From a phage: a stretch of 64,000 nt of DNA. Within the stretch, counting starts at the first letter, position 1; each line of letters begins with the position of its first letter. The notes under the pieces were generated by a model. It saw nothing but the letters and a program-made list of their open reading frames with translations. It was not told where the DNA came from and ran no database searches. The stretch lies in the sequence record PV806337.1. The stretch is one strand, 5' to 3'. Position numbers and translations under genes: made by a program. Positions 44,089-64,000 of this stretch are shown piece by piece.

Positions 44089-44096
44089 ATAAATTT

Positions 44097-44339: not shown

Positions 44340-47103
44340 CTAGTTCTGCCATTGCTTCATCATGCATATGTTTCTCCTCATCAGTCATAAACTTATATGG
44401 GATTGGCATACACTCGATTTTACAATAGGTTCTGTACCAGTCTACAATATTCTCCGTGTTCATATCCTTACCAATACCCATCATACCAAGATACATTCTT
44501 GCATATTTAGGGTTAGCACTCTGACCTGTTTTAAGGAAGAAATCTTTCTTCTTACCTTTCAGAGCTTCTATGAATGGTTTGATAGTGACGTTTGAACACT
44601 TCTTAATATCTTCCCAGAACATCTCGTGCATCTTATGGAAGAATGCAGCCCGATCATTAGGTTTATCCTTGATATATTGTTCAACATGCTCAACTGTTAC
44701 ATCTTTAATAGACTCAAGATGGTAATAGCGAACAAGAAGTAGTTTAGCTTCATACGCATCTGCATGTCGTGGAGCACAATAATCAGGAGTTGAATACAAA
44801 ATGGCTTTGATTCGCTCTTCTGTATACTCTTTACCTGCACCTTCGATAGTTCCCCAGCTTTCACTGAAAATATCAATAGTTGCACCCTGATCAAGCAAGT
44901 AATAACGTAAAGTACTAGTATAGTTCCTAGACTCCAGCTCCCTGCGACGTGCGTATAATTGCTGTGCTAACTCCAGCCAACCTTCATCAATGTTATATTG
45001 TTCAGAACCTGCGGAGAATCCACTCGTAGATTTATCAATAAAATAATAAATGTTCTGAGCACCACGGTCGCGCCTGATTGCTTGGAAACGCATGTTTGGC
45101 GCCTGGTTACTAGTTCTAGTAATAACAAATACGTTATCAAAATAGTTGAAGTCAACTCCACTCGTTACGGATGGACTACATAATAAGCAATCAATTTGTT
45201 GGTCAATTAGCTCATTAGTTGTATAATCCAGAATACGTCTAATATCCACATCAGATGTAGAGTTTGAGTGGATTTCCTTAACTAACGCACCCGTATTACG
45301 ACGCAATGCCATGCCCTTCTCATTCAGTTCATCTGGCCCACAGTCAGATACTAGGATAGATTTCTCACCCATCTCTAGAGAAGTCTGAAGTGCAACCCAA
45401 ATACTGGATTCATCAGGGAACTCATAAGCATGAGCTTTTGATAGCATTTTACGGTGATGATTATAAAATGCAACCGGTTTATCAAACTCAATCAAAGAAC
45501 CATATGCTTCAATTGTTTCTGCACTAATATCCCCATCAGATAATATAATGATTTTTGCAGTTGCAAGAATATCCCGAAGAACCTGAATACATTCACGACG
45601 TTGTTTAACAACCGGGGCGAATAATAGGTCGTTCATTACTGCATCACATTCATCGATAAAGATTGCATCAATTTGACCAATAAAACTCTTGAACTTATGC
45701 AAAGAGTGAATAGTTGTGGACATACGGTCAATAGCACCACGCTTAAAATTAAGCATATCTACAGACTTATCGTATTGTCCTGCACTAAATTTCTTAGCAT
45801 TTGAAGATACCAGTGCTCTAGTATTGGTAATTGCTAAAAAATTACCTTTAATAACTCCTGAATCTAACCAACGCACAACCGCCGTGGTTTTACCTGTGCC
45901 TAAACTCGCTTTTACAAAAGTCATATAACCTTCTGGTGGCACAGTATTTAGTTTCAAGAAATTATCAGTTTCTAGAGAATTAGTTTCTAGCTTTTTAAGT
46001 GGAATACCTTTTAAAATATCGGGTATATCGCGTTTAGAATTATTAACAAACGCTTTCAGAGCCTGCTTACGACCGTTATTAAAATAATCTTGAATATTAC
46101 GACTGTTATCTTTAGTTGCGATATATTCTGATAAGGCTGGACGGATTTCTTTTTCTAGCCATGCAAAATCAACACCATCCTCTAATGCTCTATGGTATAG
46201 TTTGGGGATAATACGCAAGTACACCCCATCCTCAGCTTCTTCTAGTTCGCTGATAGTTTCCTCTACTTTATCAGAGGCAGCTTTTTTACCTTTAATTTGA
46301 TCGAGTAAAGAGTAAAACTCCTCCTTAAACTCACCTCTAGTTGTTTCATAGTCAACCAGATTATTTGGTAAATTTACTTTAGAACCTTTAACAAATACCA
46401 GACGTGAAGCACCCTCCGCTTTAAACGGATCTACTATACCATCGGTAAATAACGGATCTGCAAAATAATGGAGCTGTACGGAAGAGTAATAAGCTAAGTC
46501 GGCAATATCAAAGCCGTACTTTTGTCTACTACTTTCATTGATAGATGTAAATAAGAATTTGATTTGACCCTGAGTTACTTTAACATTAGATTCTAGTATT
46601 AAGTGCATTCGGATACCTGGTTTTAGCCCAGCCGAAGACGATGCATGAGCGATAAACCCTGCATCAAGAGGAAACATATCCTCACTAATACTATTTAACA
46701 TCCTAATAATATGTCGAGCCATGCCAACAAGATCAAACTTGTTACAACCACCTGTATCTACAATACCATCCACGTCCATTGCAATTATATGACTTGGGTT
46801 AGATACATTAAAGTTGCCCTTCTTACGTCGCACATTATTTTTAGGTGCAAGACATCGACCTCGTACCGCAACGATATGAGGGTCAGACGTTAAACGTCTC
46901 ATAAGAGGAAGCATTTCTACTAGGGTTTGAGGATCAACTTCATCAATTACATCAAACTTGAAGGGCATTGAGGCTGGTTTACCTTCAGGATGCTTTGAGG
47001 AAAATCTTTTAGCAAAAAGATAGTCTTCTGCTTTAACTTCTCGCCAATTGCCTGTGGCTAAATCGCGATGAAATCCTGCATGACCTTGTAGGATTGAGAA
47101 CAC
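44314..47103 (-). CDS. large replication-associated P-loop NTPase (helicase-like)
   Basis: Walker A SLGTGKTT, Walker B IFIDECD; start set at GTG 47103 preceded by AGGAG; ORF-track start 47181 adds a hydrophobic junk-like N-terminus. Confidence 0.6.
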   Translation of the reverse strand: MFSILQGHAGFHRDLATGNWREVKAEDYLFAKRFSSKHPEGKPASMPFKFDVIDEVDPQTLVEMLPLMRRLTSDPHIVAVRGRCLAPKNNVRRKKGNFNVSNPSHIIAMDVDGIVDTGGCNKFDLVGMARHIIRMLNSISEDMFPLDAGFIAHASSSAGLKPGIRMHLILESNVKVTQGQIKFLFTSINESSRQKYGFDIADLAYYSSVQLHYFADPLFTDGIVDPFKAEGASRLVFVKGSKVNLPNNLVDYETTRGEFKEEFYSLLDQIKGKKAASDKVEETISELEEAEDGVYLRIIPKLYHRALEDGVDFAWLEKEIRPALSEYIATKDNSRNIQDYFNNGRKQALKAFVNNSKRDIPDILKGIPLKKLETNSLETDNFLKLNTVPPEGYMTFVKASLGTGKTTAVVRWLDSGVIKGNFLAITNTRALVSSNAKKFSAGQYDKSVDMLNFKRGAIDRMSTTIHSLHKFKSFIGQIDAIFIDECDAVMNDLLFAPVVKQRRECIQVLRDILATAKIIILSDGDISAETIEAYGSLIEFDKPVAFYNHHRKMLSKAHAYEFPDESSIWVALQTSLEMGEKSILVSDCGPDELNEKGMALRRNTGALVKEIHSNSTSDVDIRRILDYTTNELIDQQIDCLLCSPSVTSGVDFNYFDNVFVITRTSNQAPNMRFQAIRRDRGAQNIYYFIDKSTSGFSAGSEQYNIDEGWLELAQQLYARRRELESRNYTSTLRYYLLDQGATIDIFSESWGTIEGAGKEYTEERIKAILYSTPDYCAPRHADAYEAKLLLVRYYHLESIKDVTVEHVEQYIKDKPNDRAAFFHKMHEMFWEDIKKCSNVTIKPFIEALKGKKKDFFLKTGQSANPKYARMYLGMMGIGKDMNTENIVDWYRTYCKIECMPIPYKFMTDEEKHMHDEAMAELGARNDSEE

Positions 47104-52763: not shown

Positions 52764-53421
52764 TAATTATTTCCTCAATAAACCTTGCTACTACTTCTGG
52801 CTCAATACTAAAAAATTCTGTAGCACCATCAAAATCTTTATATTGACAATTATATTCCTTAAACTGTAAATGGGTTTCTCTCTCAATATGCATAGCTTTT
52901 GATCTATCTGAAAAGCTATACTCCTTAAATATTTTTAAATCATGTATGTTAGAGGAAGTTTTAATATCTCTGAGTCTATCTTTAGTTCTGCTAGACACAC
53001 CTATTTTGGTTCCCACATTACTTACTAAAATATATACGTTAGTAGGATAATTATCCTTCTCTAATAAACATATAGGACAACCAGAATTATGATTTCTAAC
53101 ACTATCAAGTGTAGACTCCCATTTATGATCATTCTCACAGCTGAACATGATTTTACTCTTGGAATTGATATATTTACCTTCCATCTTTATTCCACGGGCA
53201 GCTAAAGATTCATTTACTTCTTTAAGATCTAAAGTACGGCTAGCACAATAAGGGCAACCTCTACCACCTTTTACGTTATCTACTCTAGCCTCCCAACTAT
53301 GCCCATTAGAGCACTTAAATATAGCCTTGGATTTAGCTGATACATACGTGCTTAGCATAACTATTCCTCTAGGAGCAAGTGCTAAGTTCACATCTTCTGT
53401 AGTTATTTTCTTTCTTACCAT
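52750..53421 (-). CDS. T5orf172-type (GIY-YIG-like) domain protein with N-terminal zinc ribbons; homing-endonuclease-like
   Basis: 223 aa; two C-x4-H…C-x2-C repeats; C-terminal VYILV…GTKIGVSS…R…ERETHLQF…DGATEFF pattern. Confidence 0.6.
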   Translation of the reverse strand: MVRKKITTEDVNLALAPRGIVMLSTYVSAKSKAIFKCSNGHSWEARVDNVKGGRGCPYCASRTLDLKEVNESLAARGIKMEGKYINSKSKIMFSCENDHKWESTLDSVRNHNSGCPICLLEKDNYPTNVYILVSNVGTKIGVSSRTKDRLRDIKTSSNIHDLKIFKEYSFSDRSKAMHIERETHLQFKEYNCQYKDFDGATEFFSIEPEVVARFIEEIINEQR

Positions 53422-53442
53422 TAAATTCTCCTTAATTCACAT

Positions 53443-53471
53443 ATTATACATAATTCCACCCCATACGTCAA
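53443..53471 (-). promoter_or_regulatory. sigma70 promoter (divergent region)
   Basis: - strand TTGACG, 17-bp spacer, TATAAT, then AAGGAG RBS and ATG at 53421. Confidence 0.65.
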
Positions 53472-53643
53472 CTACATTTTTCTAATACTATTTGACTTTT
53501 GATTTTTATCAATTTTTATTGATGCTATACAGCATAATATCTTTACATATAAATAAATGATTATCTAGTATCATATTTCTACCTTTATAAGCAAGTAAAT
53601 TTTTTATTTAAAAGCAATATCATAGGTTTATTTAAAATTATAC

Positions 53644-53672
53644 TTGCTTTTTGCTGTAAACCTTGTTATAAT
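53644..53672 (+). promoter_or_regulatory. T5-type sigma70 promoter upstream of phoH
   Basis: TTGCTT, 17-bp spacer, TATAAT. Confidence 0.7.
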
Positions 53673-53748
53673 ATATTTGTAAGTTGATAAACAAGATCTC
53701 TTTGTTGATCCTCTGTTAGAAGCGAAGTACACTATAGGAGTGTTATTT

Positions 53749-54501
53749 ATGGGAAAAGCACGTCAAAAAAGAGAGAACCGCAATGGTTCAAGAAAGCGTG
53801 GCAACAAGTATGAGAATAACGTAATTCAGGCTGATTTTTCTAATGATTACGCTAACCCAGTTGCTAAATCCCTAGTAGGTAAAAACCGCGAGCAAAAATC
53901 ATATATCAATATGATCAAGAACAACACAGTGACTGTGGGCATCGGTGAGCCAGGTACTGGTAAAACCTTTATTCCGTCCGTTCTTGCAGCTCAGGAACTC
54001 GTAGACATTCACTCAGATATTGAGCAAGTGATCCTCGTACGTCCTAATGAACCTCTAGGTAAGTCTCTTGGTATGCTTCCTGGTGATCTAGCAGAAAAGC
54101 TAGAGCCTTGGTTGGAGCCAATAGCTGATGGTATGAAATGGGCCATCGGCGATCATGCCTATAAGGGATATGTCGAACGTCAGAAAATTAAATTTTTGGC
54201 TGTCGAACATGCTCGTGGCAGAACTTTCAACAACTCCTATGTAATTGTCGATGAAGCTCAGAATATTTCCGTTGAGGCAATGATTTGTCTTCTAACTCGT
54301 GTAGGGCAAGACTGCCGTTTAATTATCTGCGGAGATATAGCTCAGAAAGACATTAAAGGTGACTCAGGTCTAGCACTCCTTATGGAAGTCTATGAGAAAT
54401 ACGAAAATGCCCCATTCTCAATGATCGAATTGATTGATAACGTTCGTTCTGTTGAGTCTAAAGCATTCTATGACATCTTTAAAGACATGGGGAAGGTGTA
54501 A
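53749..54501 (+). CDS. phoH: PhoH-like ATPase
   Basis: Walker A GEPGTGKT, Walker B VIVDEAQN; start set at ATG 53749 after GGAG. Confidence 0.85.
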   Translation: MGKARQKRENRNGSRKRGNKYENNVIQADFSNDYANPVAKSLVGKNREQKSYINMIKNNTVTVGIGEPGTGKTFIPSVLAAQELVDIHSDIEQVILVRPNEPLGKSLGMLPGDLAEKLEPWLEPIADGMKWAIGDHAYKGYVERQKIKFLAVEHARGRTFNNSYVIVDEAQNISVEAMICLLTRVGQDCRLIICGDIAQKDIKGDSGLALLMEVYEKYENAPFSMIELIDNVRSVESKAFYDIFKDMGKV

Positions 54502-54502
54502 T

Positions 54503-54724
54503 ATGGGAAACGTCGTTCATCTGAGCCGTAAAACTAAAATACATCGTACTTCACTGAGTGCTGCTAATATGATTACACGTAAGGAAGGGGAAGAAAGTCC
54601 TAAGACAACCCTAGCGTGGAAAATTGTAACCTCAAATCCAAATAAACCATTCAATTATAACGAGTTGAGCACCTCCATAGATATTCTATTAAAAGAAGTA
54701 GCTAGAACTAAAGTAATTGAATAA
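54503..54724 (+). CDS. hypothetical protein
   Basis: 73-aa ORF from ATG 54503 with GGGGAAGG RBS; ORF-track start 54434 overlaps phoH. Confidence 0.45.
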   Translation: MGNVVHLSRKTKIHRTSLSAANMITRKEGEESPKTTLAWKIVTSNPNKPFNYNELSTSIDILLKEVARTKVIE

Positions 54725-54799
54725 GCTAAAAAGCTAGACTGGTAATATACAGGGCCTGGGTATGAAAATACTCGGGCCTTTTCTATCAGAAAATTTTAT

Positions 54800-54828
54800 T
54801 TGCCTAATGACCGATAATAAAGTAGAAT
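54800..54828 (+). promoter_or_regulatory. putative sigma70 promoter upstream of nrdA
   Basis: TTGCCT, 17-bp spacer, TAGAAT. Confidence 0.4.
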
Positions 54829-54866
54829 ATTCCTTAAATCCTGATAACTATAAAAAGGAAAGCCAA

Positions 54867-57197
54867 ATGAGCCATCGCATTGAAAAAGTAATTAAACGTG
54901 ACGGTACTGTAGAAGACTTTGCTCCTGAAAAAATCAATGGTTGGGCAGAGTATGGTTGCAAAACAGTTGATGTAAGCTGGTCAGCCATTACTATGGCTGC
55001 TCAAAAAACTCTGCCTAAAGGGGTTGTAGATTCCGACACTCTGATGGATGCATTAATTAAAGCTGCTGAAAGTCTTATTAAAGATAATCCAGCATACGAT
55101 GTGCCAGCAAAGGAATTACGTCTTGCGCAAATGCGTAAACGCCTTTATGACTCTTTCGAACCACCTTCTTTACGCTTCTTCCATGACCACATGGTTAGCG
55201 TAGGTGCATGGGAAGACATGAGTGCATGGATTACCGATGAGCAATTTGAAGCTCTGAATCAGGTTATCGACCATGATCGTGACCGTCTTTTTACTAGTGG
55301 TGGGCTGAAGCAGTTCTTTGATAAGTATTCCCGTCGTAATATAGCCACTGGTGAAATTTATGAAACCCCGCAATTCGCCTACATGGGTATGGCAATGGCG
55401 ATGTTATCTCAACCTAACTGGACAATTCTAGATGCAATCGACCTCTACAACGCAATGTCGCTCCACAAAATCAACGTTCCTACGCCGCCACTGGTTGGTC
55501 TGCGCTCTAGTGACCGTGGATTTGCTAGTTGCTGTCTCGTGGATTCCACTGACACGTTGGATTCAATCGACACCGCCGAGCACATCGTCTTCAAAATGGT
55601 CGCAGCCAGAGCGGGAATCGGGTATCATCTTGAAAGCCGATCAATTGCTGATCCGGTGCGAAATGGGGCATTCCCGCATTCCGGAAAACTGCCATATTAT
55701 CGACACATTGACCGCTCAGTAAAGGCCAATACTCAGCAAACTCGTGGTGGTTCTGCTACAGTGTCTTATCCATACTTCGACCCTGAAATCATTCAATTGA
55801 TGCAGGTTAAGCAACAACGTGCTACAGATGAGAATAAAATCGATAAGATGGATTATTCTCTGAGCTTTAACAATCTTTTGTTAAAACGTTATCTTAAAAA
55901 CGAAGATATTACGCTAATGTCATACTTCTATGCTCCAGAAGTTCATGAAGCGTTTTATAGTGATGACGAGGCTAAATTTGAAGAAATCTACGTGGCAGCG
56001 GAGAAACGTGTGGCATCTCTTACAAAGATCGACCACGAAGGAAAAACAGTTCCTGCAGCTCCTAAAGTCTCTGCAAAAGAAATCCTAGATACTTGGCTAC
56101 GTATCCGAATGGAAACAGGACGTATGTATGCTCACCACATTGGGGAATCTAATCGTCACGGTAACTTCCTTGATCCGATCCGTATGACAAACCTTTGTGT
56201 TGAAATTACTCAGCCTACACGCCCGTTCCATCACATTACAGAGCTGTACAAGACAAAAGAGCAGCTTGATCAAATGAAGCCGGAGGATATTGGTGAAGTA
56301 TCTCTGTGTAACTTAGGTGGTGTTGTACTTGGACGCATGGAATCTCTGGCTGAGTGGGAAAAAACTTGCTACATCCTTCTGAAGTTTGTTGATACAATTA
56401 TTGAAATTCAGGATTATCCGTTCCCAACTATGGAATATACGGCCAAGAAACGTCGTAATGTCGGTATTGGCCTAATGAACGCAGCAGGTGCAATGGCAGC
56501 AGAAGGTCTGGCTTACGAAGGTATTGAAGCTCGTAACTGGATCCACCGTGAGGCTGAAAAACTGTCTTACTTCCTGCATAAAGCCTCTGTACGCCTGGCT
56601 AAGGAACAGGGTGCATGTGAGTGGTTTGATCGTACTAAACCATCTAAAGGAATTCTGGTAATCGACACGTACAAGAAAACTGTTGATGAGCTGGTATCCG
56701 TAGGTCTAGAAATGGACTGGGAGTCTCTGCGTGCAGATATTCTGAAATATGGTATGCGTAACTCTGTTCTGACTGCTCAGATGCCGGGAGAAAGTTCTTC
56801 TGTTCTGTTAGGTGTTACTAACTCTATCGAACCACCTCGTAAGATTGTATCTATCAAGGGTAGTGCAGTAAATAAAGTAATTGCAATTGCTCCAGGTGCA
56901 ACCGATTGGGAAACGTTAATGAGCTATAAATTGGCTTATGATGTAGATCGTATCGAGTGGATCAAATGGGTAGCAACTATGCAGAAATTCTTCAGCCAGT
57001 CTGTTAGTACTAATATGTACTACGACTACACCAAGTTTGAGAATGAAATTATTCCTGGCCCAGTAGTAGTTCGTGATTTCATGACTGCTGTTAAATACGG
57101 GTGGAAAACTTGGTATTATGCTAACTTCAACACCGCAAATGGTGGTGGTGCTGGAGAAGAAGCAGCTGGTTGTGCATCAGGCGGTTGTACTATTTAA
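54867..57197 (+). CDS. nrdA: ribonucleoside-diphosphate reductase large subunit (class Ia)
   Basis: ATP-cone-like N-terminus (VIKRDGTVEDF), catalytic NLCVEI motif, C-terminal GCASGGC tail; start set at ATG 54867 after AAGGAAAG. Confidence 0.9.
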   Translation: MSHRIEKVIKRDGTVEDFAPEKINGWAEYGCKTVDVSWSAITMAAQKTLPKGVVDSDTLMDALIKAAESLIKDNPAYDVPAKELRLAQMRKRLYDSFEPPSLRFFHDHMVSVGAWEDMSAWITDEQFEALNQVIDHDRDRLFTSGGLKQFFDKYSRRNIATGEIYETPQFAYMGMAMAMLSQPNWTILDAIDLYNAMSLHKINVPTPPLVGLRSSDRGFASCCLVDSTDTLDSIDTAEHIVFKMVAARAGIGYHLESRSIADPVRNGAFPHSGKLPYYRHIDRSVKANTQQTRGGSATVSYPYFDPEIIQLMQVKQQRATDENKIDKMDYSLSFNNLLLKRYLKNEDITLMSYFYAPEVHEAFYSDDEAKFEEIYVAAEKRVASLTKIDHEGKTVPAAPKVSAKEILDTWLRIRMETGRMYAHHIGESNRHGNFLDPIRMTNLCVEITQPTRPFHHITELYKTKEQLDQMKPEDIGEVSLCNLGGVVLGRMESLAEWEKTCYILLKFVDTIIEIQDYPFPTMEYTAKKRRNVGIGLMNAAGAMAAEGLAYEGIEARNWIHREAEKLSYFLHKASVRLAKEQGACEWFDRTKPSKGILVIDTYKKTVDELVSVGLEMDWESLRADILKYGMRNSVLTAQMPGESSSVLLGVTNSIEPPRKIVSIKGSAVNKVIAIAPGATDWETLMSYKLAYDVDRIEWIKWVATMQKFFSQSVSTNMYYDYTKFENEIIPGPVVVRDFMTAVKYGWKTWYYANFNTANGGGAGEEAAGCASGGCTI

Positions 57198-57204
57198 TAA
57201 AAAC

Positions 57205-57232
57205 AAGGAGATCTTCGGGTCTCCTTTTTCTT
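57205..57232 (+). terminator. rho-independent terminator after nrdA
   Basis: AGGAGATC-ttcg-GGTCTCCT hairpin followed by TTTTCTTTG. Confidence 0.75.
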
Positions 57233-57243
57233 TGAAATTTTAC

Positions 57244-57272
57244 TTGCTAATCGCTACCAGATTTGCTATAAT
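57244..57272 (+). promoter_or_regulatory. T5-type sigma70 promoter upstream of nrdB
   Basis: TTGCTA, 17-bp spacer, TATAAT. Confidence 0.75.
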
Positions 57273-57303
57273 ATTCCTGAAATAGTGAGAAAGAGGAAAA
57301 TCA

Positions 57304-58449
57304 ATGACTACTTTACTAAACCTGAATTGGGATCATACTAACGCCGACCTTTTCCTGGGAGATTCTCTCGGTATCGCAGATTATGTACGTGTAGCACATC
57401 CAGAACTAGAACGTCTGGCACTTCTGCAGCGCTCTCAATTTTGGACTGAAACTGAAATCAGTCTGGAAGCAGATAAGAAACAATGGCCTAATCTCCCACG
57501 AGAAATTCAGGAAATTACACTCCTGAACTTAGCATGGCAAACTCAAACTGATTCCTTTATCAGTCGTGCCCCTGAAGCAGCTATTATGCCGCTTGTAAGT
57601 CGTCCAGAATTGGAAGGTATGCTCAAACAGTGGAGCTATTTTGAAGACCTGCATAGTCGTGCTTATAGCAATATTATTCGTAATGTGCTGACTGATCCAG
57701 CAGAATTTATTGATTCTGTAACCAAAAACCAAGAAGCATTCGCGCGCATCGCTGATTCTGTTGAACTATTCGATGAACTGTACCAGTTAGGTCAGTATTT
57801 CATCGCAGTACGCGATCATCGTGGCGACAATACATATCCAGAAACTGAGTTCCCTGAAGTTAAACGTGAAACTCAGGCTAAACTATTAGACGCTTACTTT
57901 GCGATCTATGGTCTGGAAGCAATGCAGTTTTACGCATCCTTTGCATGTACCTTTGCATTAGCAGAGAACGATATTCTGCAAGGTATTGCTAAAAATCTGC
58001 AATTAATCGCTAAAGATGAAGCTCTGCACACTCAGATGTCCAAAGCAATCATCCAGATTATGTTTCAGCAATTTGACAAAGATCTGGTAGATGAAGCAGT
58101 GGCTAAAGCACCAGCACAGCTCCTGAAAACTCTGAAAACTGAAATTGAATGGGGTCATTTCATTTTCAAAGGTCGTAGTCTGATTGGCTTGAATGCAGAA
58201 CTTCTAGAAGAATATCTGTATTTTGTGGGACGTAATGCATTTATGCACATCGGTGTAGAATGGCCTAGTCATTTACCAGTAATCACCAAAAACCCTATTC
58301 CGTGGATTATGAACTGGTTGGATACTACTTCTCTACAGCCTGCTCCACAAGAAATCCAGATTGGTGCAGCCTACCGTGTAGGTCAGGTAACTGAGACCTC
58401 TACTGATACTCTGAAAGATCTGGGTAATGAATTTGGAGATTTCTTATGA
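57304..58449 (+). CDS. nrdB: ribonucleoside-diphosphate reductase small subunit
   Basis: 381 aa; di-iron ligand motifs (FEDLHSRAY, DEALHTQ); AGAGGAAAA RBS. Confidence 0.85.
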   Translation: MTTLLNLNWDHTNADLFLGDSLGIADYVRVAHPELERLALLQRSQFWTETEISLEADKKQWPNLPREIQEITLLNLAWQTQTDSFISRAPEAAIMPLVSRPELEGMLKQWSYFEDLHSRAYSNIIRNVLTDPAEFIDSVTKNQEAFARIADSVELFDELYQLGQYFIAVRDHRGDNTYPETEFPEVKRETQAKLLDAYFAIYGLEAMQFYASFACTFALAENDILQGIAKNLQLIAKDEALHTQMSKAIIQIMFQQFDKDLVDEAVAKAPAQLLKTLKTEIEWGHFIFKGRSLIGLNAELLEEYLYFVGRNAFMHIGVEWPSHLPVITKNPIPWIMNWLDTTSLQPAPQEIQIGAAYRVGQVTETSTDTLKDLGNEFGDFL

Positions 58450-58979
58450 TTACAGCAATGTATGCAGTTGGGCCGAATGGGGAGTTCGGCCTCCGCGGTA
58501 AACTTCCATGGGGTTCCTTCAAAGAAGAACTAGATGCTTTCTATTCTCAACTGGACGTGTTGAATCCAGATAACATCATCATTGGTGCGGGTACTTATTT
58601 AGCTCTTCCATACGCCGTTAGAGAACGTATGATTGGAGCTTCTGACCTATTTATTCGTGCTGATCGTCCACTGCCAGATGATATTACACATGATATTTAC
58701 ACCCCAATTTCTAAGATTGGGGATGCTTTACCTACATTTCTGAAAGATCAGCAGACAGTAGTTCTAGGTGGTGCTAACCTTCTTCTAGAAATGTATCAAT
58801 ATGGTCATATTGAAAGTGCTTTTGTATCCACAATCTTTAGTAATCAAAAACTAGAGGCAGATGTATATCTGGATAATACGATTCTAGATTACAACTATGA
58901 ATCTACTCGTTTAGTTTACGCAACTGGCGCAAACAGTGATAACAGCCTGCGATTTGTACAGGAATTGGTTACTTATTAA
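58446..58979 (+). CDS. frd: dihydrofolate reductase
   Basis: 177 aa; DHFR-like N-terminus ([18 protein letters not shown]), glycine-rich IIGAGTY and VVLGGANLL segments; position between nrdB and thyA. Confidence 0.7.
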
Positions 58980-59833
58980 TGGATCAGTATATAGAAGTTG
59001 GAAAACGTATTCTATCAGAAGGTCAGTGGGTAACGAATCCCAGAACAGGGGTTCGTTGCCTCACCATTATTGATGCAGATTTTACTTTTAACGTAGGTGC
59101 AGGTGAATTCCCACTTATTACTACTCGTAAGGCGTTTGCAAAACAAGCAATAATGGAAATGATTGGGTATCTACGTGGGTATGATTCAGCAGCACAATTC
59201 CGCGCTATTGGTGTTAACACATGGAATGCTAATGCAAATGAAAACTTAGCTTGGCTAGACAATCCATACCGTAAAGGTGAGGATGATATGGGACGAGTCT
59301 ATGGTGTTCAAGGACGTCAGTGGACTAATTCCGATGGTCTTATGTTTGACCAACTAGTCAAGATTTATCATAATCTGAAAAAGGGCATTGATGATCGTGG
59401 GGAAATTCTAACCTTCTGGAATCCGGGGGAGTTCTCAAAGGGTTGCTTACGTCCATGTATGCATACTCATCAGTTCTCTATTTTGGGAGATACATTATAT
59501 CTGAACTCTTTCCAGAGATCTAATGACTTCCTGTTAGGCCAAGTATTTAACATGGTTCAGTGCTATACGCTTCTAGCATTAATGGCACAGATTACAGGCC
59601 TTAAACCAGGAATTGCACGCCAGAAGATTATCAATCTTCATATCTATGAGGATCAGTATAATGTTTTGATGGAGCACAAGCAATTCGATCGTGAACCTTT
59701 TGCACTCCCAACTCTAGAAATTAATCCAAATATTAAGACTTTAGATGACGTATTGACTTGGGTAAGTAAGGATGATTTTACTGTTCAAGGTTATGAACAT
59801 CATCCAGCTATTGCATACCCATTCACTGTTTAA
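58979..59833 (+). CDS. thyA: thymidylate synthase
   Basis: 284 aa; active-site cysteine context [10 protein letters not shown]; overlapping start with upstream stop. Confidence 0.85.
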
Positions 59834-59846
59834 TTTAAAATATTAT

Positions 59847-59876
59847 TTGCTTTAATCCCAGTACTTATAGTATAAT
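59847..59876 (+). promoter_or_regulatory. T5-type sigma70 promoter upstream of HNH gene
   Basis: TTGCTT, 18-bp spacer, TATAAT. Confidence 0.6.
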
Positions 59877-59903
59877 ATCTCCTATATACATTATAGGAGA
59901 TAT
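59875..59903 (+). promoter_or_regulatory. perfect 12-bp inverted repeat overlapping -10 and Shine-Dalgarno of HNH gene
   Basis: ATATCTCCTATA-tacat-TATAGGAGATAT; right arm contains the SD AGGAGA 8 nt before ATG 59908. Confidence 0.7.
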
Positions 59904-59907
59904 ATTT

Positions 59908-60462
59908 ATGATCGTACAAGAGGGGTGGACAAAAGAATCCGCACGTAATAGGTTTATCTATAATCCTCTTACTGGGGAGATTTTAAATAGAATTAACAGT
60001 GGTAGGGCTAAGAAAGGACAGATAGCCGGGTACCTAGACAAGTCTACTGGATATATTCGGGTAACATTGGCAGGAAAAAGAATGAAAGGACATCAGTTAG
60101 CCTTCTTATACATGGAAGGATATATACCTGATACTATAGATCACATCAACAGAATAAAATCTGATAATAGATGGTGTAATTTAAGGGAATCTTCACCCCA
60201 AGAGAATGCTAGAAATATTAAAGCAAGAAGTAAATCTGGTTATTTAGGGGTTGGGTGGCATAAGCCAAGTCAAAAATGGTGGGTATATACTAAAGATGTA
60301 AAAGGAGCGCAGATTAATGGTGGTTACTTTGATTATACGAAATTAGAGGAAGCAGTCAATAAAGCTAATGAACTCCGTCAGCAATTACATGGACATACTG
60401 CTATTTTAGAAGTTTTTAATCCTGATCAACCAATACCTACCATAGAGGAACTTAATAAATGA
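59908..60462 (+). CDS. HNH homing endonuclease
   Basis: 184 aa; IDHINRIKSDNRWCNL HNH motif; paralogous in motif to the HNH at 29689-30204; inserted between thyA and RNase H. Confidence 0.7.
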   Translation: MIVQEGWTKESARNRFIYNPLTGEILNRINSGRAKKGQIAGYLDKSTGYIRVTLAGKRMKGHQLAFLYMEGYIPDTIDHINRIKSDNRWCNLRESSPQENARNIKARSKSGYLGVGWHKPSQKWWVYTKDVKGAQINGGYFDYTKLEEAVNKANELRQQLHGHTAILEVFNPDQPIPTIEELNK

Positions 60463-60935
60463 GTGTTTTCCACATTTACACAGATGGTGCTTGTAAGTCT
60501 AACCCAGGTCCAGGTGCTTGGGGATTTATTGTCTATGATGATAACGATGATCGTTTAGGTTCTAAATCTGGATATAGTCCTAAAACTACAAATAATGAGA
60601 TGGAACTCACGGCTATTGTAGAGGCTCTACGTTGGTCAGTTAAAAAAGATAATAGACCAATTGTTATCTATACTGATTCTGCTTATTGCAAAAATGGTAT
60701 GGAAAGTTGGATGTTTTCTTGGCAAAGGAAAGGCTGGAAGAAAGCAGATGGTGAAGTTCCTCTTAATCTAGAACTTTGGCAGGAAGCATTTAAATTAACA
60801 CAGCAGTATATCAACTTTCATAATACTAACCCTACCTTTATTAAGGTTAAAGGACATTCTGGTATTAGTGGTAATGAAGCTGTAGACGCCTTATGTAACA
60901 CAGTTATTACTGAAGCTGAAATGGCTGAGATGTGA
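60459..60935 (+). CDS. rnh: ribonuclease H
   Basis: 158 aa; RNase H fold motifs (IYTDGAC, NNEMELTAIVEAL, IYTDSAY, …AVDALC). Confidence 0.8.
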   Translation: MSVFHIYTDGACKSNPGPGAWGFIVYDDNDDRLGSKSGYSPKTTNNEMELTAIVEALRWSVKKDNRPIVIYTDSAYCKNGMESWMFSWQRKGWKKADGEVPLNLELWQEAFKLTQQYINFHNTNPTFIKVKGHSGISGNEAVDALCNTVITEAEMAEM

Positions 60936-60956
60936 TAAATAAATTAAAAAATTTTC

Positions 60957-60985
60957 TTGCTTAAAGCCCTCTAATTTAGTATAAT
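60957..60985 (+). promoter_or_regulatory. T5-type sigma70 promoter
   Basis: TTGCTT, 17-bp spacer, TATAAT; flanked by 9-bp inverted repeat AAAGCCCTC / GAGGGCTTT (60963-61012). Confidence 0.7.
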
Positions 60986-61012
60986 ATTCGTATTGAAAGT
61001 GAGGAGGGCTTT

Positions 61013-61291
61013 ATGAGAATTTATAACTCAAATTCATTAGGATTTAAACCGTTGAGAAAACGTGCACAATCACCTCGTCAAATAAGAAAGGCTAATATTG
61101 GTGAGCCAGAAACACGTCTTCCACCTCCTCCGGAACAACGTTTAGTTTATCTGGATGAAGAATTAGCTGAACGCGAAAGAAAAGCTCAAGAAGAGATTGA
61201 GCGTAAGAAAATGTGTACTGCTCCAGCATATAATAAAGGAGCGTATCAATATGTTTCCGATGCAGAACAAGCCAAGATGGTTGGTAGATAA
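61013..61291 (+). CDS. hypothetical basic protein
   Basis: 92 aa; GAGGAGGG RBS; PPPP segment and charged helix. Confidence 0.5.
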   Translation: MRIYNSNSLGFKPLRKRAQSPRQIRKANIGEPETRLPPPPEQRLVYLDEELAERERKAQEEIERKKMCTAPAYNKGAYQYVSDAEQAKMVGR

Positions 61292-61307
61292 TTTTTAAAA
61301 AATTCAT

Positions 61308-61336
61308 TTGCTAAACGCTTCAAATTCTCGTATAAT
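61308..61336 (+). promoter_or_regulatory. T5-type sigma70 promoter
   Basis: TTGCTA, 17-bp spacer, TATAAT. Confidence 0.75.
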
Positions 61337-61374
61337 ATACTTCATAAATTGATAAACAAAAAGGAAAATAAATA

Positions 61375-61890
61375 ATGGCTAAGCAGAAAAACGCAAAAAC
61401 TCAAGCAGCCCCGGCAGTTAAAACTTTCCCTCAGACTGAGGCTAACCGCAAAGCTCGTCTGGAACGCCACCTGCGCAAGCACCCTACTGATGCTCAAGCT
61501 GCACAGGCACTGAATCGTCCGGCTCCGATTCGTCAAAAGCCGAAGGCTAAGAATACCACTCGTTCTGTAGTCCGCCTTGTGACCTATGTACAGGGTTATG
61601 GTCACAAATCTGTTCCAGTAGCACTGAGTTTCAATGCTGGAGCAGAATTGTTCCCTCGTAATGGCATGGCCATGAAAGATTACGAGAAAGCAGTTAACCA
61701 GAAACGCAAACCAACGGCAGATGTATTGCGTGATACTCGTGGACAGTTTGGTTCTGTTAAGCCAAATATCTTCGGTGTAGAGTATAGCAAAGATAATGTT
61801 CGTGCTCTATGTTACGGTGTAGGCATTAAGTTCACGGGTGATTCTGCTCGTAAATCTGCTAAACCAGCTCGTAAACGTAAAGCGAAGTAA
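61375..61890 (+). CDS. hypothetical highly basic protein (probably abundant)
   Basis: 171 aa; Lys/Arg-rich termini; strongly optimal codon usage (ctg, cgt, ccg); AAGGAAAA RBS. Confidence 0.6.
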   Translation: MAKQKNAKTQAAPAVKTFPQTEANRKARLERHLRKHPTDAQAAQALNRPAPIRQKPKAKNTTRSVVRLVTYVQGYGHKSVPVALSFNAGAELFPRNGMAMKDYEKAVNQKRKPTADVLRDTRGQFGSVKPNIFGVEYSKDNVRALCYGVGIKFTGDSARKSAKPARKRKAK

Positions 61891-61899
61891 TAGATAAAT

Positions 61900-61916
61900 A
61901 GGGGCAGAAGCCCCTA
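61900..61916 (+). other. GC hairpin after basic-protein gene (no T-tract)
   Basis: AGGGGC-agaa-GCCCCT; may be RNA stability element or weak terminator. Confidence 0.4.
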
Positions 61917-61954
61917 CAATCTACTAATTCTCTAACTAATCAAGGATATTTTTT

Positions 61955-62170
61955 ATGTTCTCTAAGAAACCACGTTCCGTTACTGAAATCGTTGCTTCCT
62001 TTACCACTATCACTGATGAGCTTCAAGCTCGTATTGAGGCTGATCAAAAAATTGCGGCGGATATTCAGAAACAGCAGGAAGAACTCGCTTTAAAGTTGGC
62101 TGAAACCAACAAGAGTGAAAAATCTGCCCAAACTATTATGGAAAATATCCTTAAACTGCTGGGCAAGTGA
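61955..62170 (+). CDS. hypothetical coiled-coil protein
   Basis: 71 aa; AAGGAT RBS. Confidence 0.5.
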   Translation: MFSKKPRSVTEIVASFTTITDELQARIEADQKIAADIQKQQEELALKLAETNKSEKSAQTIMENILKLLGK

Positions 62171-62179
62171 TTTAAATCA

Positions 62180-62201
62180 GGGGGCGAAAGCCCCTCTTAT
62201 T
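62180..62201 (+). terminator. putative rho-independent terminator
   Basis: GGGGGC-gaaa-GCCCCT hairpin followed by CTTATTT. Confidence 0.5.
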
Positions 62202-62211
62202 TGGAGAAACT

Positions 62212-62448
62212 ATGCGTAATTTTGTAGCAAAGAATGATTTTAACCGTGCTAGCACTCATAAGTCCGCTAGAGATTATACACGACTTTCTAGTCATGAGGT
62301 AATGGACACCTGTTATGAAGAGCTGGAAGGTAGCTGGAATGAATGGCCCGACTTCTCTATGGAAGAGAACTGGGATGTCAGTGAGGATATGCTTCCTGGC
62401 TTTAAAGACCCCAAGAAGTGGGAGTCTATTAAAGAGCTGTCTCTTTAA
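62212..62448 (+). CDS. hypothetical acidic Trp-rich protein
   Basis: 78 aa; GGAGAAAC RBS; acidic C-terminal half (EELEGSWNEWPDFSMEENWDVSEDM). Confidence 0.5.
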   Translation: MRNFVAKNDFNRASTHKSARDYTRLSSHEVMDTCYEELEGSWNEWPDFSMEENWDVSEDMLPGFKDPKKWESIKELSL

Positions 62449-62476
62449 TAGTTTTCTACACAATAAAGGATAAGTT

Positions 62477-63178
62477 ATGAAAGTAAAACCATTTGGTATG
62501 CTAGATATTGAATCTCTGGGAACTCCAGGAGATTGTGGTACTACTCATATCGCAATGCCTTCTTTCGCTTTTGTGGCTATGCATGGAATTGATAAAGACC
62601 CTGATCTAATATTTGTTACTTTGGATGTACAAGATCAGCTTAATTCTGGTGCCAAAGTTACAGCATCTACTCTAGCATTCTGGATGGATCAAGCTAAAAA
62701 TAGCCCGTCTGCTATCCACATTATGGAAGCTATGAAGGAACGTAATCCAAAACTGATTGCCTTCCAAAATGGTAAACATCATTGCACTAATAAACTCGGC
62801 TCTAACTATGCTGCCTACTCTATGGCTAAAAATATTATGGAGTTGGCTTTAGGCGAAAATGCTTTGTATTATGGAAACGGTCCAGAGTTTGATATGACTA
62901 TCTACTCTGCAAACACGTTCCATGCTGGAACCAATGAAGAGGTAGTTCCGTGGAAATTCTGGAATTTGGGTAATGTTCGATCTCTTCGTAACCTCTGGAT
63001 GCAGGCTGGATACAGTTATAAAGCTCTAGAGACCGAAGGTATTAGCTGGGCAATAGCTAAAATGGAGAAGATGGACACCATTCGTTATGGGATCTATCCG
63101 GTTAAGCACGACCCAGCATTTGATGCCTTAGTTGAGAGCTATTGTGTTGCAGCTATGATCGAAAAAATGAAAATTTGA
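62477..63178 (+). CDS. putative DEDDh-type 3'-5' exonuclease
   Basis: 233 aa; Exo I-like MLDIESLG, Exo II-like NGPEFDMTIY, Exo III-like HDPAFDA (H-x4-D). Confidence 0.5.
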   Translation: MKVKPFGMLDIESLGTPGDCGTTHIAMPSFAFVAMHGIDKDPDLIFVTLDVQDQLNSGAKVTASTLAFWMDQAKNSPSAIHIMEAMKERNPKLIAFQNGKHHCTNKLGSNYAAYSMAKNIMELALGENALYYGNGPEFDMTIYSANTFHAGTNEEVVPWKFWNLGNVRSLRNLWMQAGYSYKALETEGISWAIAKMEKMDTIRYGIYPVKHDPAFDALVESYCVAAMIEKMKI

Positions 63179-63179
63179 T

Positions 63180-63208
63180 TTGCTTCCGGCTCCAAAATTC
63201 TGTATAAT
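63180..63208 (+). promoter_or_regulatory. T5-type sigma70 promoter
   Basis: TTGCTT, 17-bp spacer, TATAAT, then ATATTCATAAATTTGAGAAAAC. Confidence 0.75.
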
Positions 63209-63248
63209 ATATTCATAAATTTGAGAAAACAATAAAAGGAAAACAAAT

Positions 63249-63431
63249 ATGCCAGTATCTAAAAATGTTCGTAAAAATGGTAAGAAAGCTACTCGTAATC
63301 TGGGTATCCGTCGTATGGCTGAACGTCAATCAGGTATCCAGAAAATCTTTGATCTGCTAAATCGTGCTAATCCTAAAATTGATAACAGTAACGATACTGT
63401 TCTGCGCACTCTGCTGGCAATTGGTCTGTAA
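63249..63431 (+). CDS. hypothetical small basic protein
   Basis: 60 aa; AAAGGAAAA RBS. Confidence 0.5.
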   Translation: MPVSKNVRKNGKKATRNLGIRRMAERQSGIQKIFDLLNRANPKIDNSNDTVLRTLLAIGL

Positions 63432-63484
63432 TAGACCAACTTTAAACAAATTCAAATCTCAAACTTCATATAAGGAAGCAAATA

Positions 63485-64000
63485 ATGACTACTCGTATCT
63501 CTAAAACTCGCGCTCTGGCAACTATCAAATCTCTGGAAGCTAAAATCCGTAAAGCTACTGAACAACAGCTTCTGATCGCTGTTGGTGAAGGTAAGGATAA
63601 AAATAAGGTTGTAGTTGGCGCTGCAATCGAAGTAGATGATTTATCTGAGCGTATTAAGACAGATTTCCAGTCCCTGCTGGATATGATGTCCCAGCGTGAT
63701 CGTATCAAAGCTGCTCTGATTAAGAGCAATGCAGAAACGATCGTTGAGATAGGCTCTCGTAAAATGACTGTTGCGGAAGCAATTGAAGCTAAGCGTTCTA
63801 TGGAACTTAAAGCCCAACTGCTGGCTAACATGCGTAAGCAGTTCCATGCCGCCACGGTTAAGTTTAATACGCAGAAAGCACAGTTTGATGCTAAATATGA
63901 GCGTTTGCAGGATAGCATGGCTACCCGTGATAAGAAAACTTCCGAAGATGAAGTTAAAATGCAGCTCAACCTGCTGGAACTCAAGAATACTCCATTCTTG
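63485..64000 (+). CDS. hypothetical protein, 3'-truncated by window edge (probably highly expressed)
   Basis: ATG 63485 after AAGGAAG RBS; frame open to last base (172 codons); optimal codon usage; not in ORF track because no stop; the antisense ORF 63466-63984 is therefore likely spurious. Confidence 0.6.
   Translation, partial: MTTRISKTRALATIKSLEAKIRKATEQQLLIAVGEGKDKNKVVVGAAIEVDDLSERIKTDFQSLLDMMSQRDRIKAALIKSNAETIVEIGSRKMTVAEAIEAKRSMELKAQLLANMRKQFHAATVKFNTQKAQFDAKYERLQDSMATRDKKTSEDEVKMQLNLLELKNTPFL

What the first reader, a model, noticed from the sequence alone, without database searches (positions are those of the whole stretch)
61013..64000. Array of small early genes, each with its own consensus promoter
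Three consensus promoters (60957, 61308, 63180) drive genes for a 92-aa basic protein, a 171-aa very basic protein with high-expression codon usage, a 71-aa coiled-coil protein, a 78-aa acidic Trp-rich protein, a DEDDh-like exonuclease and a 60-aa basic protein; a further strongly codon-optimised ORF starts at 63485 and runs off the window. Strong individual promoters on small proteins of extreme charge are typical of host-takeover or anti-restriction factors. The acidic protein could be a DNA mimic; that is speculative.
Basis: inference. Interest (0 to 1): 0.5.

Follow-up and report, generated by a model that had tools for sequence, protein, structure and literature searches.

The report
Phage T5 early genes and promoters
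This stretch is the already-annotated T5.090–T5.085 part of the early region of a T5-like phage, driven by well-known strong T5 early promoters (one is P-H207); the genes are real and some are built for high expression, but there is little to support the idea that they are host-takeover or DNA-mimic factors.

Summary
All seven ORFs, their charges, the DEDDh motif, the three TTGCT-N18-TATAAT promoters and the codon optimisation are present at the stated coordinates. The window is a Tequintavirus: 98.5% identical to Salmonella phage SPLA5b and 94% to T5 itself. The ORFs are T5.090, T5.089, an extra 71-aa ORF, T5.088, T5.087, T5.086 and T5.085. T5 RefSeq already annotates the three promoters, and the middle one is P-H207.

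"Each with its own promoter" is wrong: three promoters serve seven genes.

The functional reading is weak.
- T5 host takeover maps to pre-early genes elsewhere. This locus lies between rnh and the tRNA region.
- The acidic 78-aa protein is the detached N-terminal part of the exonuclease. The two are one 334-aa protein in Klebsiella T5-like phages. Its conserved core is a basic 30-residue N-terminus, not the acidic stretch.
- T5.089 (DUF7022) was a fitness gene in a published T5 knockdown screen, while the other five T5 genes were not. Its function is unknown, and a resemblance to ribosomal protein S15 is inconclusive.

Verdict: a known locus, with modest new detail.

The parts
60957..60985 (+). 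T5-type sigma-70 early promoter (-35 TTGCTT, 17-nt spacer, -10 TATAAT) upstream of the T5.090 orthologue
   Evidence: Exact pattern match. Orthologous to a promoter annotated in T5 NC_005859. Conserved in T5 and in S116.
61013..61291 (+). T5.090 orthologue, 92 aa, basic (pI 9.7), function unknown, low CAI (0.21)
   Evidence: phrog_4593 at E 2.7e-57. pN/pS 0.10. Not Fit in the T5 CRISPRi-ART screen. This slot holds other genes in some relatives.
61308..61336 (+). Orthologue of T5 promoter P-H207
   Evidence: T5 RefSeq note 'promoter P-H 207'. The window is identical to T5 over about 75 nt around it.
61375..61890 (+). T5.089 orthologue, 171 aa, DUF7022, pI 10.9, CAI 0.47 (rank 7 of 72)
   Evidence: Pfam PF22887 at E 1.5e-76. 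Family alignment. AF2 model with pLDDT 64. Fit gene in T5.
61891..61923 (+). GC-rich hairpin after T5.089 (-15.6 kcal/mol), with no U-tract on the + strand
61955..62170 (+). 71-aa helical ORF (phrog_2380), absent from T5, CAI 0.45
   Evidence: It is the indel relative to T5. pN/pS 0.04.
62171..62205 (+). Second GC-rich hairpin with a U-rich tail (terminator-like); counterpart of the single hairpin in T5
62212..62448 (+). T5.088 orthologue, 78 aa; DUF7230-type basic N-terminus plus an acidic MEENWDV motif; the detached N-terminal part of the exonuclease
   Evidence: Fused to the exonuclease in PQ569710.
62477..63178 (+). T5.087 orthologue, 233-aa Rv2179c-like DEDDh 3'-5' exonuclease
   Evidence: PF16473 at E 3.6e-8, 33.7 bits against a cut-off of 27. 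Motif residues. phrog_255.
63180..63208 (+). T5-type early promoter upstream of T5.086, with ATATT discriminator and TTCATAAATTTGAG downstream box
63249..63431 (+). T5.086 orthologue, 60 aa, pI 11.6, CAI 0.48
63485..64000 (+). First 172 codons of the T5.085 orthologue (212 aa in relatives); helical protein with the 3kdq / DUF6847-like fold; CAI 0.52 (rank 5)

Best explanation
This is the T5.090-T5.085 segment of the early (second-step-transfer) region of a Tequintavirus. It lies between the nucleotide-metabolism and RNase H genes and the tRNA region.

Host sigma-70 RNA polymerase starts at three T5-type early promoters. Each has an A/T-rich upstream tract, a -35 TTGCT(T/A), a 17-nt spacer and a -10 TATAAT. 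The middle one is the orthologue of P-H207.

The inferred transcription units are:
- P1 -> T5.090.
- P-H207 -> T5.089 plus the 71-aa ORF, then a terminator-like hairpin. T5.088 and T5.087 would be expressed by read-through.
- P3 -> T5.086 and T5.085.

Shown here:
- T5.087 is a DEDDh 3'-5' exonuclease.
- T5.088 is its detached N-terminal module.
- T5.085 is a member of a widespread helical family with the 3kdq fold, not a tail fiber.
- T5.089 is a conserved, very basic, codon-optimised DUF7022 protein.

Inferred:
- T5.089 is an abundant nucleic-acid-binding protein with a core role in the early phase. It may act together with the adjacent exonuclease module.
- T5.090, the 71-aa ORF, T5.086 and T5.085 are dispensable accessory genes.
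For: Identity of the locus: 98.5% to SPLA5b and 94% to T5 43,628-46,447. The T5 annotation gives T5.085-T5.090 and three promoters, one of them P-H207.

Promoters: exact matches, enriched over shuffles, and conserved in T5 and S116.

Hairpins: -15.6 and -15.7 kcal/mol. There is no structure between T5.086 and T5.085.

Expression design: CAI ranks 5, 6, 7 and 9 of 72.

Coding: pN/pS 0.04-0.24.

Exonuclease: PF16473 above its cut-off, plus D10/E12/D139/H211/D216.

Fusion: a 334-aa protein in PQ569710 aligns to T5.088 (75% identity, E 9e-29) and to T5.087 (38% identity, E 5e-55). The phrog_255 profile covers both proteins. 82 of the 550 phage records matching T5.088 are Klebsiella phages, and each of the seven listed matches only residues 1-59/60.

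T5.089:
- Present across Demerecviridae.
- Its N-terminal module occurs in more than 120 small basic proteins.
- It sits next to the exonuclease fusion gene in Klebsiella phages, and next to a free 42-aa DUF7230 protein in a distant metagenomic phage.
- It is one of 17 Fit genes in the T5 CRISPRi-ART screen (PMC11879866 supplement).

Against: - No transcript or protein data were available for this phage. The transcription units and the read-through are inferred from sequence only.
- The first hairpin has no U-tract. Termination efficiency at either hairpin is unknown.
- The Fit call for T5.089 is marginal (p = 0.0496). The screen flagged only 17 T5 genes, so 'Not Fit' is weak evidence of dispensability.
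- Nucleic-acid binding by T5.089 rests on composition, a poor AF2 model (pLDDT 64, pTM 0.24) and an inconclusive motif similarity.
- Gene adjacency of T5.089 with the exonuclease module could be inherited synteny rather than functional coupling. More distant DUF7022 genes lack that neighbourhood.
Confidence: 0.8

Rival explanations
1. The array is a host-takeover or anti-restriction cluster: each small charged protein inactivates a host target, and the acidic 78-aa protein acts as a DNA mimic.
For: - Five of the six T5 orthologues were Not Fit on a laboratory host, as expected of accessory or counter-defence genes.
- The locus is plastic. The 71-aa ORF is present or absent between relatives. 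The T5.090 slot holds a DksA-type zinc-finger gene plus a YbiA gene in some relatives.
- T5.085 homologues sit among accessory early genes (Macro, NUDIX, NAMPT) in T4-like contigs.
Against: - T5 takeover functions map to the pre-early first-step-transfer genes (bioRxiv 10.64898/2026.04.02.716235; PMC10644984).
- No PADLOC hit and no other informative family hit.
- The 78-aa protein is an exonuclease domain in other phages. It has a conserved basic N-terminus and a net charge of only -7.
- T5.089 is a fitness gene conserved across the family.
- The same promoter type drives nrdB and replication genes.
Confidence: 0.12
2. T5.089, T5.088 and T5.087 form one functional module. An abundant basic nucleic-acid-binding platform (DUF7022) recruits or regulates the DEDDh exonuclease through the DUF7230 / acidic-motif adaptor. 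The module acts next to RNase H on RNA primers, on oligonucleotides or on tRNA precursors.
For: - The gene order rnh - DUF7022 - DUF7230-containing gene is kept in T5, in Klebsiella T5-like phages (where DUF7022 ends exactly where the fused exonuclease gene starts) and in a metagenomic phage whose DUF7022 protein is 28% identical to the window's.
- The stand-alone 42-aa DUF7230 protein ends in an acidic-aromatic tail, DLEDELEPPFMF. From memory, this resembles the C-terminal tip of SSB.
- T5.088 keeps a conserved MEENWDV motif.
Against: - In the window a 71-aa ORF and a terminator-like hairpin separate T5.089 from T5.088.
- More distant DUF7022 genes have unrelated neighbours.
- T5.089 was Fit while T5.087 and T5.088 were Not Fit, so T5.089 must have a role beyond the exonuclease.
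- No interaction data exist.
Confidence: 0.2
3. T5.089 is an RNA- or ribosome-binding protein that uses a helix-loop-helix resembling alpha2-alpha3 of ribosomal protein uS15.
For: - 27 of 97 DUF7022 N-module proteins hit Pfam Ribosomal_S15 at E <= 1 (best 6.7e-4). The next most frequent family was hit by only 5.
- hhalign places residues 24-48 on S15 residues 34-58, with H32, H36 and D39 opposite conserved S15 H, H and D.
- AF2 predicts two helices there with pLDDT 84-90.
- The composition and expression design resemble those of ribosomal proteins.
Against: - All hits are below the Pfam cut-off.
- hhalign probability is only 11% over 25 columns.
- The family members are homologous to each other, so the 27 hits are not independent.
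- The same motif also attracts C2H2 zinc-finger hits.
- The rest of S15 is absent.
Confidence: 0.1
4. T5.089 is a virion (internal or DNA-associated) protein, as some GenBank records name it.
For: It is named 'virion structural protein' in phiLLS, phiP4, JLBYU40 and a UniRef entry. A very basic protein could be packaged with DNA.
Against: - The gene lies in the early region behind an early promoter.
- The neighbouring early genes in the same records carry plainly wrong structural names (tail fiber, baseplate wedge, tape measure).
- Only 16 T5 virion proteins are reported (cited in PMC8624392). I could not find T5.089 named in the accessible text, and the supplements were not held.
Confidence: 0.04

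Closest known systems
Bacteriophage T5 (NC_005859) genes T5.090-T5.085 with their annotated early promoters, including P-H207
   Same: Orthologous locus: 94% nucleotide identity, the same gene order, and the same three promoters at the same positions. The P-H207 region is identical over about 75 nt.
   Different: The window carries an extra 71-aa ORF with a duplicated hairpin between T5.089 and T5.088. It also has an HNH endonuclease gene upstream of rnh.
Rv2179c-like DEDDh 3'-5' exoribonucleases (Pfam PF16473)
   Same: The domain hit is above the Pfam cut-off, and D-E-D-H-D residues are present.
   Different: Here the enzyme's N-terminal module is encoded as a separate 78-aa protein. It is fused in Klebsiella T5-like phages. 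Substrate and role are unknown.
PDB 3kdq (uncharacterised conserved protein of Corynebacterium diphtheriae) / Pfam DUF6847
   Different: Only 13% identity. T5.085 is about 60 residues longer. Neither protein has a known function.
DNA-mimic anti-restriction proteins (T7 Ocr, ArdA and similar; comparison from memory)
   Same: T5.088 is small, acidic overall (pI 4.7) and encoded by an early phage gene.
   Different: Net charge is only -7, with a +3 basic N-terminal 30-mer that is the conserved part. It is a domain of an exonuclease in related phages.
Ribosomal protein uS15 (Pfam PF00312)
   Same: A short helix-loop-helix motif, RLxxHLKxHxxD, is shared with the DUF7022 N-terminal module.
   Different: The match is below every significance threshold. 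It covers only 25 columns. The remainder of the S15 fold is absent, and there is no support from the fold search.

Membership tests
T5-type sigma-70 early promoters (P-H207 / P-N25 class) | -35 TTGCT(T/A), a 17-nt spacer, -10 TATAAT, and an A/T-rich tract upstream of the -35 | tested here: met
   Exact matches at 60957, 61308 and 63180, each preceded by an AAAAAT(T)-type tract.
T5-type sigma-70 early promoters (P-H207 / P-N25 class) | Orthology to promoters mapped or annotated in T5 | tested here: met
   T5 RefSeq regulatory features lie at the homologous positions, one noted 'promoter P-H 207'. The sequences are conserved in T5 and S116.
T5-type sigma-70 early promoters (P-H207 / P-N25 class) | ATATT discriminator said to be common to T5 early promoters (PMC7472727) | tested here: inconclusive
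   The promoter at 63180 has ATATT. P-H207 has ATACT. The promoter at 60957 has ATTCG.
T5-type sigma-70 early promoters (P-H207 / P-N25 class) | Transcription initiation by host RNA polymerase in vivo or in vitro | not testable with these tools
   Needs 5'-end mapping or in vitro transcription.
Rv2179c-like DEDDh 3'-5' exonuclease (PF16473) | Domain match above the curated cut-off | tested here: met
   33.7 bits against a cut-off of 27, E 3.6e-8, residues 8-180.
Rv2179c-like DEDDh 3'-5' exonuclease (PF16473) | Catalytic DEDD residues plus His | tested here: met
   D10-x-E12, D139 (in FD) and H211-x4-D216, found by pattern search. They were not checked in a structural alignment.
Rv2179c-like DEDDh 3'-5' exonuclease (PF16473) | 3'-5' exonuclease activity | not testable with these tools
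   A biochemical assay is required.
DUF7022 (PF22887) | Full-length domain match | tested here: met
   E 1.5e-76, residues 1-169 against profile positions 1-166.
Ribosomal protein uS15 (PF00312) | Significant sequence or profile match | tested here: not met
   Best family member E 6.7e-4, below the 31-bit cut-off.
Ribosomal protein uS15 (PF00312) | S15 four-helix fold | tested here: not met
DNA-mimic anti-restriction proteins | A dense, conserved negative surface charge over the whole protein | tested here: not met
   Net charge -7 over 78 aa. Residues 1-30 are net +3 and are the most conserved part. The acidic Trp-rich stretch varies between lineages.
DNA-mimic anti-restriction proteins | An independent protein that binds a DNA-binding enzyme | not testable with these tools
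   Indirect evidence against: it is the N-terminal domain of the exonuclease in Klebsiella T5-like phages.
T5 pre-early host-takeover genes | Location on the first-step-transfer DNA (the left ~8% of the genome) | tested here: not met
   The locus maps to T5 positions 43.6-46.4 kb of 121.75 kb, between rnh and the tRNA region.
3kdq / DUF6847-like helical proteins (for T5.085) | Fold match clearly above background | tested here: met
3kdq / DUF6847-like helical proteins (for T5.085) | Significant sequence match | tested here: inconclusive
   Profile against 3kdq gives E 0.096. DUF6847 is hit by 10 of 60 family members, best E 7.3e-4, but not by the T5-type member itself.
Phage tail fiber (the GenBank / PHROG name for T5.085) | Location in the structural module, late expression, and a fiber-like fold | tested here: not met
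   It is an early-region gene behind an early promoter. The model is a compact helical bundle. A homologue is a lone chromosomal gene in Tepidibacter.

The most novel reading that the evidence does not exclude
T5.089 (DUF7022) is a phage-made RNA-binding protein, or ribosomal-protein mimic, produced at ribosomal-protein-like levels. Its N-terminal helix-loop-helix, shared with more than 120 small basic phage proteins, copies the rRNA-binding alpha2-alpha3 element of uS15. Through it the phage would bind rRNA or mRNA to reprogramme translation or protect RNA during the early phase. That would explain why knocking it down costs the phage fitness.
Probability: 0.08. Interest if true: 0.75.

Novelty: already known. 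Interest (0 to 1): 0.3.

Why it matters
The promoters are textbook elements: P-H207 and its relatives are among the strongest sigma-70 promoters, by my recollection of the 1980s literature. The genes are already annotated in T5, so the finding adds no new kind of system.

It does sharpen three points:
- T5.089 is a conserved, highly expressed, fitness-relevant protein of entirely unknown function. It heads a wider family of small basic phage proteins, which makes it a good target for experiment.
- The "acidic protein" and the exonuclease are two halves of one enzyme. This redirects any study of either.
- Several database names for these genes (tail fiber, tape measure, baseplate wedge, metallopeptidase, virion structural protein) are wrong and are spreading through hundreds of phage records.

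Tried and rejected
- PADLOC and NCBIfam scans of all seven proteins gave nothing useful.
- PDB sequence search with the exonuclease returned only spurious armadillo-repeat hits.
- PDB profile search with DUF7022 gave no hit even at E 10.
- S15 similarity was tested three ways and left as inconclusive. Two large proteins that hit the DUF7022 profile (P0165, P0191) are repeat or zinc-finger artefacts.
- I recalled that the T5.088 N-terminus resembles T7 gp1.1. My remembered gp1.1 sequence hits Pfam Phage_1_1, not DUF7230, so no link is shown.
- Rfam scan of 53000-64000 found no RNA family.
- The antisense ORF 63466-63984 was rejected as an artefact, with the lowest CAI in the window.
- Literature searches for T5.08x gene names, DUF7022/DUF7230/DUF6847 and P-H207 found nothing. 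Searches for 'DIP1984', 'septicolysin' and '3KDQ' returned only unrelated genome-annotation mentions.
- Supplements of the DRT4 paper (a toxicity screen of 61 T5 early genes) and of the phiR2-01 proteome paper were not held.
- The afdb50 fold library was unavailable.
- The neighbourhoods of distant DUF7022 genes showed no consistent partner.


Full report
WHAT THE WINDOW IS. The region 60900-64000 matches 446 phage records. The best is Salmonella phage SPLA5b, a Tequintavirus, at 98.5% identity over the full length. Phage T5 itself (NC_005859, 43,628-46,447, minus strand) matches at 94% over 92% of the query. The rest of the window fits a T5-like genome: structural genes on the + strand, then replication genes on the - strand, then nrdA, nrdB, frd, thy and rnh on the + strand, running into the finding.

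In T5 RefSeq the orthologous ORFs are T5.090, T5.089, T5.088, T5.087 ('exonuclease'), T5.086 and T5.085. The record annotates a promoter in front of T5.090, T5.089 and T5.086.

CHECK OF THE OBSERVATION.
- 92 aa, pI 9.7.
- 171 aa, pI 10.9, net charge +27.
- 71 aa, neutral, helical.
- 78 aa, pI 4.7, four Trp.
- 233 aa, with D10-x-E12, D139 and H211-x4-D216.
- 60 aa, pI 11.6.
- An ORF from 63485 that leaves the window. It is 97% identical over its 172 codons to a 212-aa protein.

Each ORF has a Shine-Dalgarno sequence. Against Epseptimavirus S116 (85% nucleotide identity) all seven show differences mostly at third codon positions, with pN/pS 0.04-0.24, so they are real coding genes.

The three promoters are exact TTGCT-N18-TATAAT matches. 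The window holds 12 exact matches, all between 35,980 and 63,208 and all on the coding strand. With one mismatch allowed there are 21 matches, against 3.9 +/- 1.9 in shuffles. One of the exact matches, at 44,060 on the minus strand, matches my recollection of the classical P-N25 sequence. The three promoters are conserved in position and sequence in T5 and in S116. The P-H207 region is identical to T5 over about 75 nt.

The codon claim also holds. The 63485 ORF scores 0.52 (rank 5 of 72 window genes), the 60-aa ORF 0.48 (rank 6), the 171-aa ORF 0.47 (rank 7) and the 71-aa ORF 0.45 (rank 9). The 458-aa and 255-aa ORFs that I take from memory to be the major capsid protein and the D5 orthologue score higher.

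One correction is needed. There are three promoters for seven genes, not one each.

ANATOMY AND LIKELY TRANSCRIPTION UNITS (inferred from sequence). P1 (60957) precedes T5.090. P-H207 (61308) precedes T5.089.

A GC-rich hairpin follows T5.089 (-15.6 kcal/mol) but has no U-tract on the + strand. The 71-aa ORF comes next. Then comes a second, nearly identical hairpin (-15.7 kcal/mol) with a U-rich tail. T5 has a single hairpin here and lacks the 71-aa ORF. So the ORF looks like a small cassette inserted next to a duplicated hairpin, or lost by recombination between the copies.

T5.088 and T5.087 have no promoter of their own and lower CAI (0.30 and 0.32). They would therefore be expressed by read-through. 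P3 (63180) precedes T5.086 and T5.085, and there is no structure between those two genes. Rfam finds no RNA family in 53,000-64,000.

THE EXONUCLEASE AND THE 'ACIDIC PROTEIN'. T5.087 matches Pfam Rv2179c-like 3'-5' exoribonuclease above the curated cut-off (E 3.6e-8) and carries the DEDDh residues.

The PHROG 'exonuclease' profile phrog_255 matches both the 78-aa protein (profile positions 75-146) and the exonuclease (positions 177-363). In Klebsiella T5-like phages a single 334-aa CDS begins with the T5.088 sequence (75% identity over residues 1-60, E 9e-29) and continues into the exonuclease (38% identity, E 5e-55). Of the 550 phage records that match T5.088, 82 are Klebsiella phages. All seven Klebsiella records listed match only residues 1-59/60, as expected for the fused form.

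Across the family, the conserved parts are a basic N-terminal 30-mer (MRNFVAKNDFNRASTHKSARDYTRLSKHEL, DUF7230-type) and a short MEENWDV motif.

So T5.088 is best read as the detached N-terminal module of the exonuclease, not as a DNA mimic. In a distant metagenomic phage the DUF7230 element is a free 42-aa protein ending in DLEDELEPPFMF. From memory, this resembles the acidic-aromatic tip of SSB. That is a lead, not a result.

T5.089 (DUF7022). The Pfam match is full length (E 1.5e-76). The word-indexed search found 34 clusters, and all those that carry a name are T5-like phages. The alignment shows three parts:
- a conserved N-terminal module (...TEANRKARLERHLRKHPxDxQA...),
- a variable middle,
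- a conserved C-terminal module (FGSVKPNIFGVEYSRENVRALCYGVGIKFTG) followed by a basic tail.

An exhaustive profile search found 132 representatives. Most are 60-170-aa basic proteins that share only the N-terminal module.

The AF2 model is poor overall (pLDDT 64, pTM 0.24). It is confident only for helices 19-35 and 40-47. Poor folding would be compatible with a protein that folds on a partner.

The published CRISPRi-ART screen of T5 lists T5.089 among only 17 'Fit' genes and calls its function entirely unknown. T5.085, T5.086, T5.087, T5.088 and T5.090 are 'Not Fit' (PMC11879866 supplements). The T5.089 call is marginal (p = 0.0496), and the screen was not very sensitive.

The order rnh - DUF7022 - DUF7230-containing gene is kept in T5, in Klebsiella T5-like phages and in one metagenomic phage whose DUF7022 protein is 28% identical to the window's. 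A second short contig keeps only rnh - DUF7022. More distant DUF7022 genes have unrelated neighbours.

T5.085. This protein is named 'tail fiber protein' in PHROGs and in many records. It belongs to a family of at least 245 clusters of about 205-215 aa with no Pfam domain. The family includes proteins from Firmicutes genomes.

One homologue is a lone chromosomal gene in Tepidibacter hydrothermalis. Others sit among accessory early genes (UvsY, RNA ligase, Macro, NUDIX, NAMPT) in T4-like contigs.

THE SMALL REMAINDER. T5.090, the 71-aa ORF and T5.086 match only PHROGs of unknown function. The T5.090 position is variable. In phiP4, for example, it holds a DksA-type zinc-finger gene plus a YbiA gene.

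ASSESSMENT OF THE INTERPRETATION. In T5, host shut-off, host DNA degradation and protection against host nucleases are attributed to the pre-early genes of the first-step-transfer DNA (bioRxiv 10.64898/2026.04.02.716235; PMC10644984). This locus belongs to the later early class.

The promoter type is the general T5 early promoter. It also precedes nrdB and replication genes, so it says nothing specific about small charged proteins. Together with the exonuclease fusion and the fitness call for T5.089, this leaves the host-takeover and DNA-mimic reading largely unsupported. A counter-defence role for one of the dispensable small genes cannot be excluded.

NOVELTY AND SCORE. The feature is already known: both the genes and the promoters are annotated in T5. 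The new details are modest:
- the split exonuclease,
- the wider family sharing the DUF7022 N-terminal module,
- the 3kdq-like fold of T5.085,
- the hairpin-flanked 71-aa cassette,
- several propagated misannotations.

Interest is 0.3. The most novel reading still open is an S15-like RNA-binding role for T5.089. I put it at about 8% probability.

Noticed in passing
window 59908-60462 (+): An HNH-type homing endonuclease ORF (184 aa) sits between thy and rnh. It has the lowest CAI of any credible gene in the window (0.150). T5 has no ORF at this position and SPLA5b has two other small ORFs, while phiLLS also has an HNH gene. A 29-nt palindrome lies just upstream, at 59875-59903.
   Followed up: partly
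window 44060-44088 (-): The exact sequence TTGCTTTCAGGAAAATTTTTCTGTATAAT, which matches my recollection of the classical T5 promoter P-N25, lies in the replication-gene arm.
   Followed up: no
window 63466-63984 (-): A 172-aa antisense ORF overlaps the T5.085 orthologue. Its CAI of 0.138 is the lowest in the window. It is almost certainly not a gene.
   Followed up: yes
window 61888-62212; L002 3990-4034: The 71-aa ORF absent from T5 is bracketed by two near-identical GGGGC...GCCCC hairpins, where T5 has one. This suggests gain or loss of a small cassette by recombination at the hairpin.
   Followed up: partly
L004 614-1344 (phage phiP4) against window 61013-61291: In some relatives the T5.090 slot holds a DksA C4-type zinc-finger gene plus a YbiA ('swarming motility' / N-glycosidase) gene. 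The slot behind this promoter is a variable accessory position.
   Followed up: no
L009 5244-6588 (metagenomic phage contig): A distant phage keeps the order RNase H - 62-aa ORF - DUF7022 (137 aa) - free 42-aa DUF7230 protein ending in DLEDELEPPFMF. Its thymidylate synthase gene is split by a GIY-YIG endonuclease gene.
   Followed up: partly
protein P0281 (60 aa, metagenome): A chimera: the N-terminal 34 residues of T5.088 joined to the C-terminal end of DUF7022 at a shared 'CY'. It is either a natural recombinant or an assembly artefact.
   Followed up: no
L006 8001-8633; L007 and L008 8001-8633: T5.085 homologues occur as a lone chromosomal gene in Tepidibacter hydrothermalis, and among accessory early genes (Macro, NUDIX, NAMPT, RNA ligase) of T4-like phage contigs.
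   Followed up: partly
GenBank records listed: These early genes carry names such as tail fiber, tail length tape-measure, baseplate wedge subunit, metallopeptidase, head maturation protease and virion structural protein. The names are mutually inconsistent and unsupported by position, domain hits or fold.
   Followed up: partly
L002 6307-7894 (T5, beyond the window end): Three further annotated T5 early promoters (including P-D/E 33 and P 16-17) follow within 1.6 kb downstream of T5.085. The promoter density rises toward the tRNA / RNAX region.
   Followed up: no
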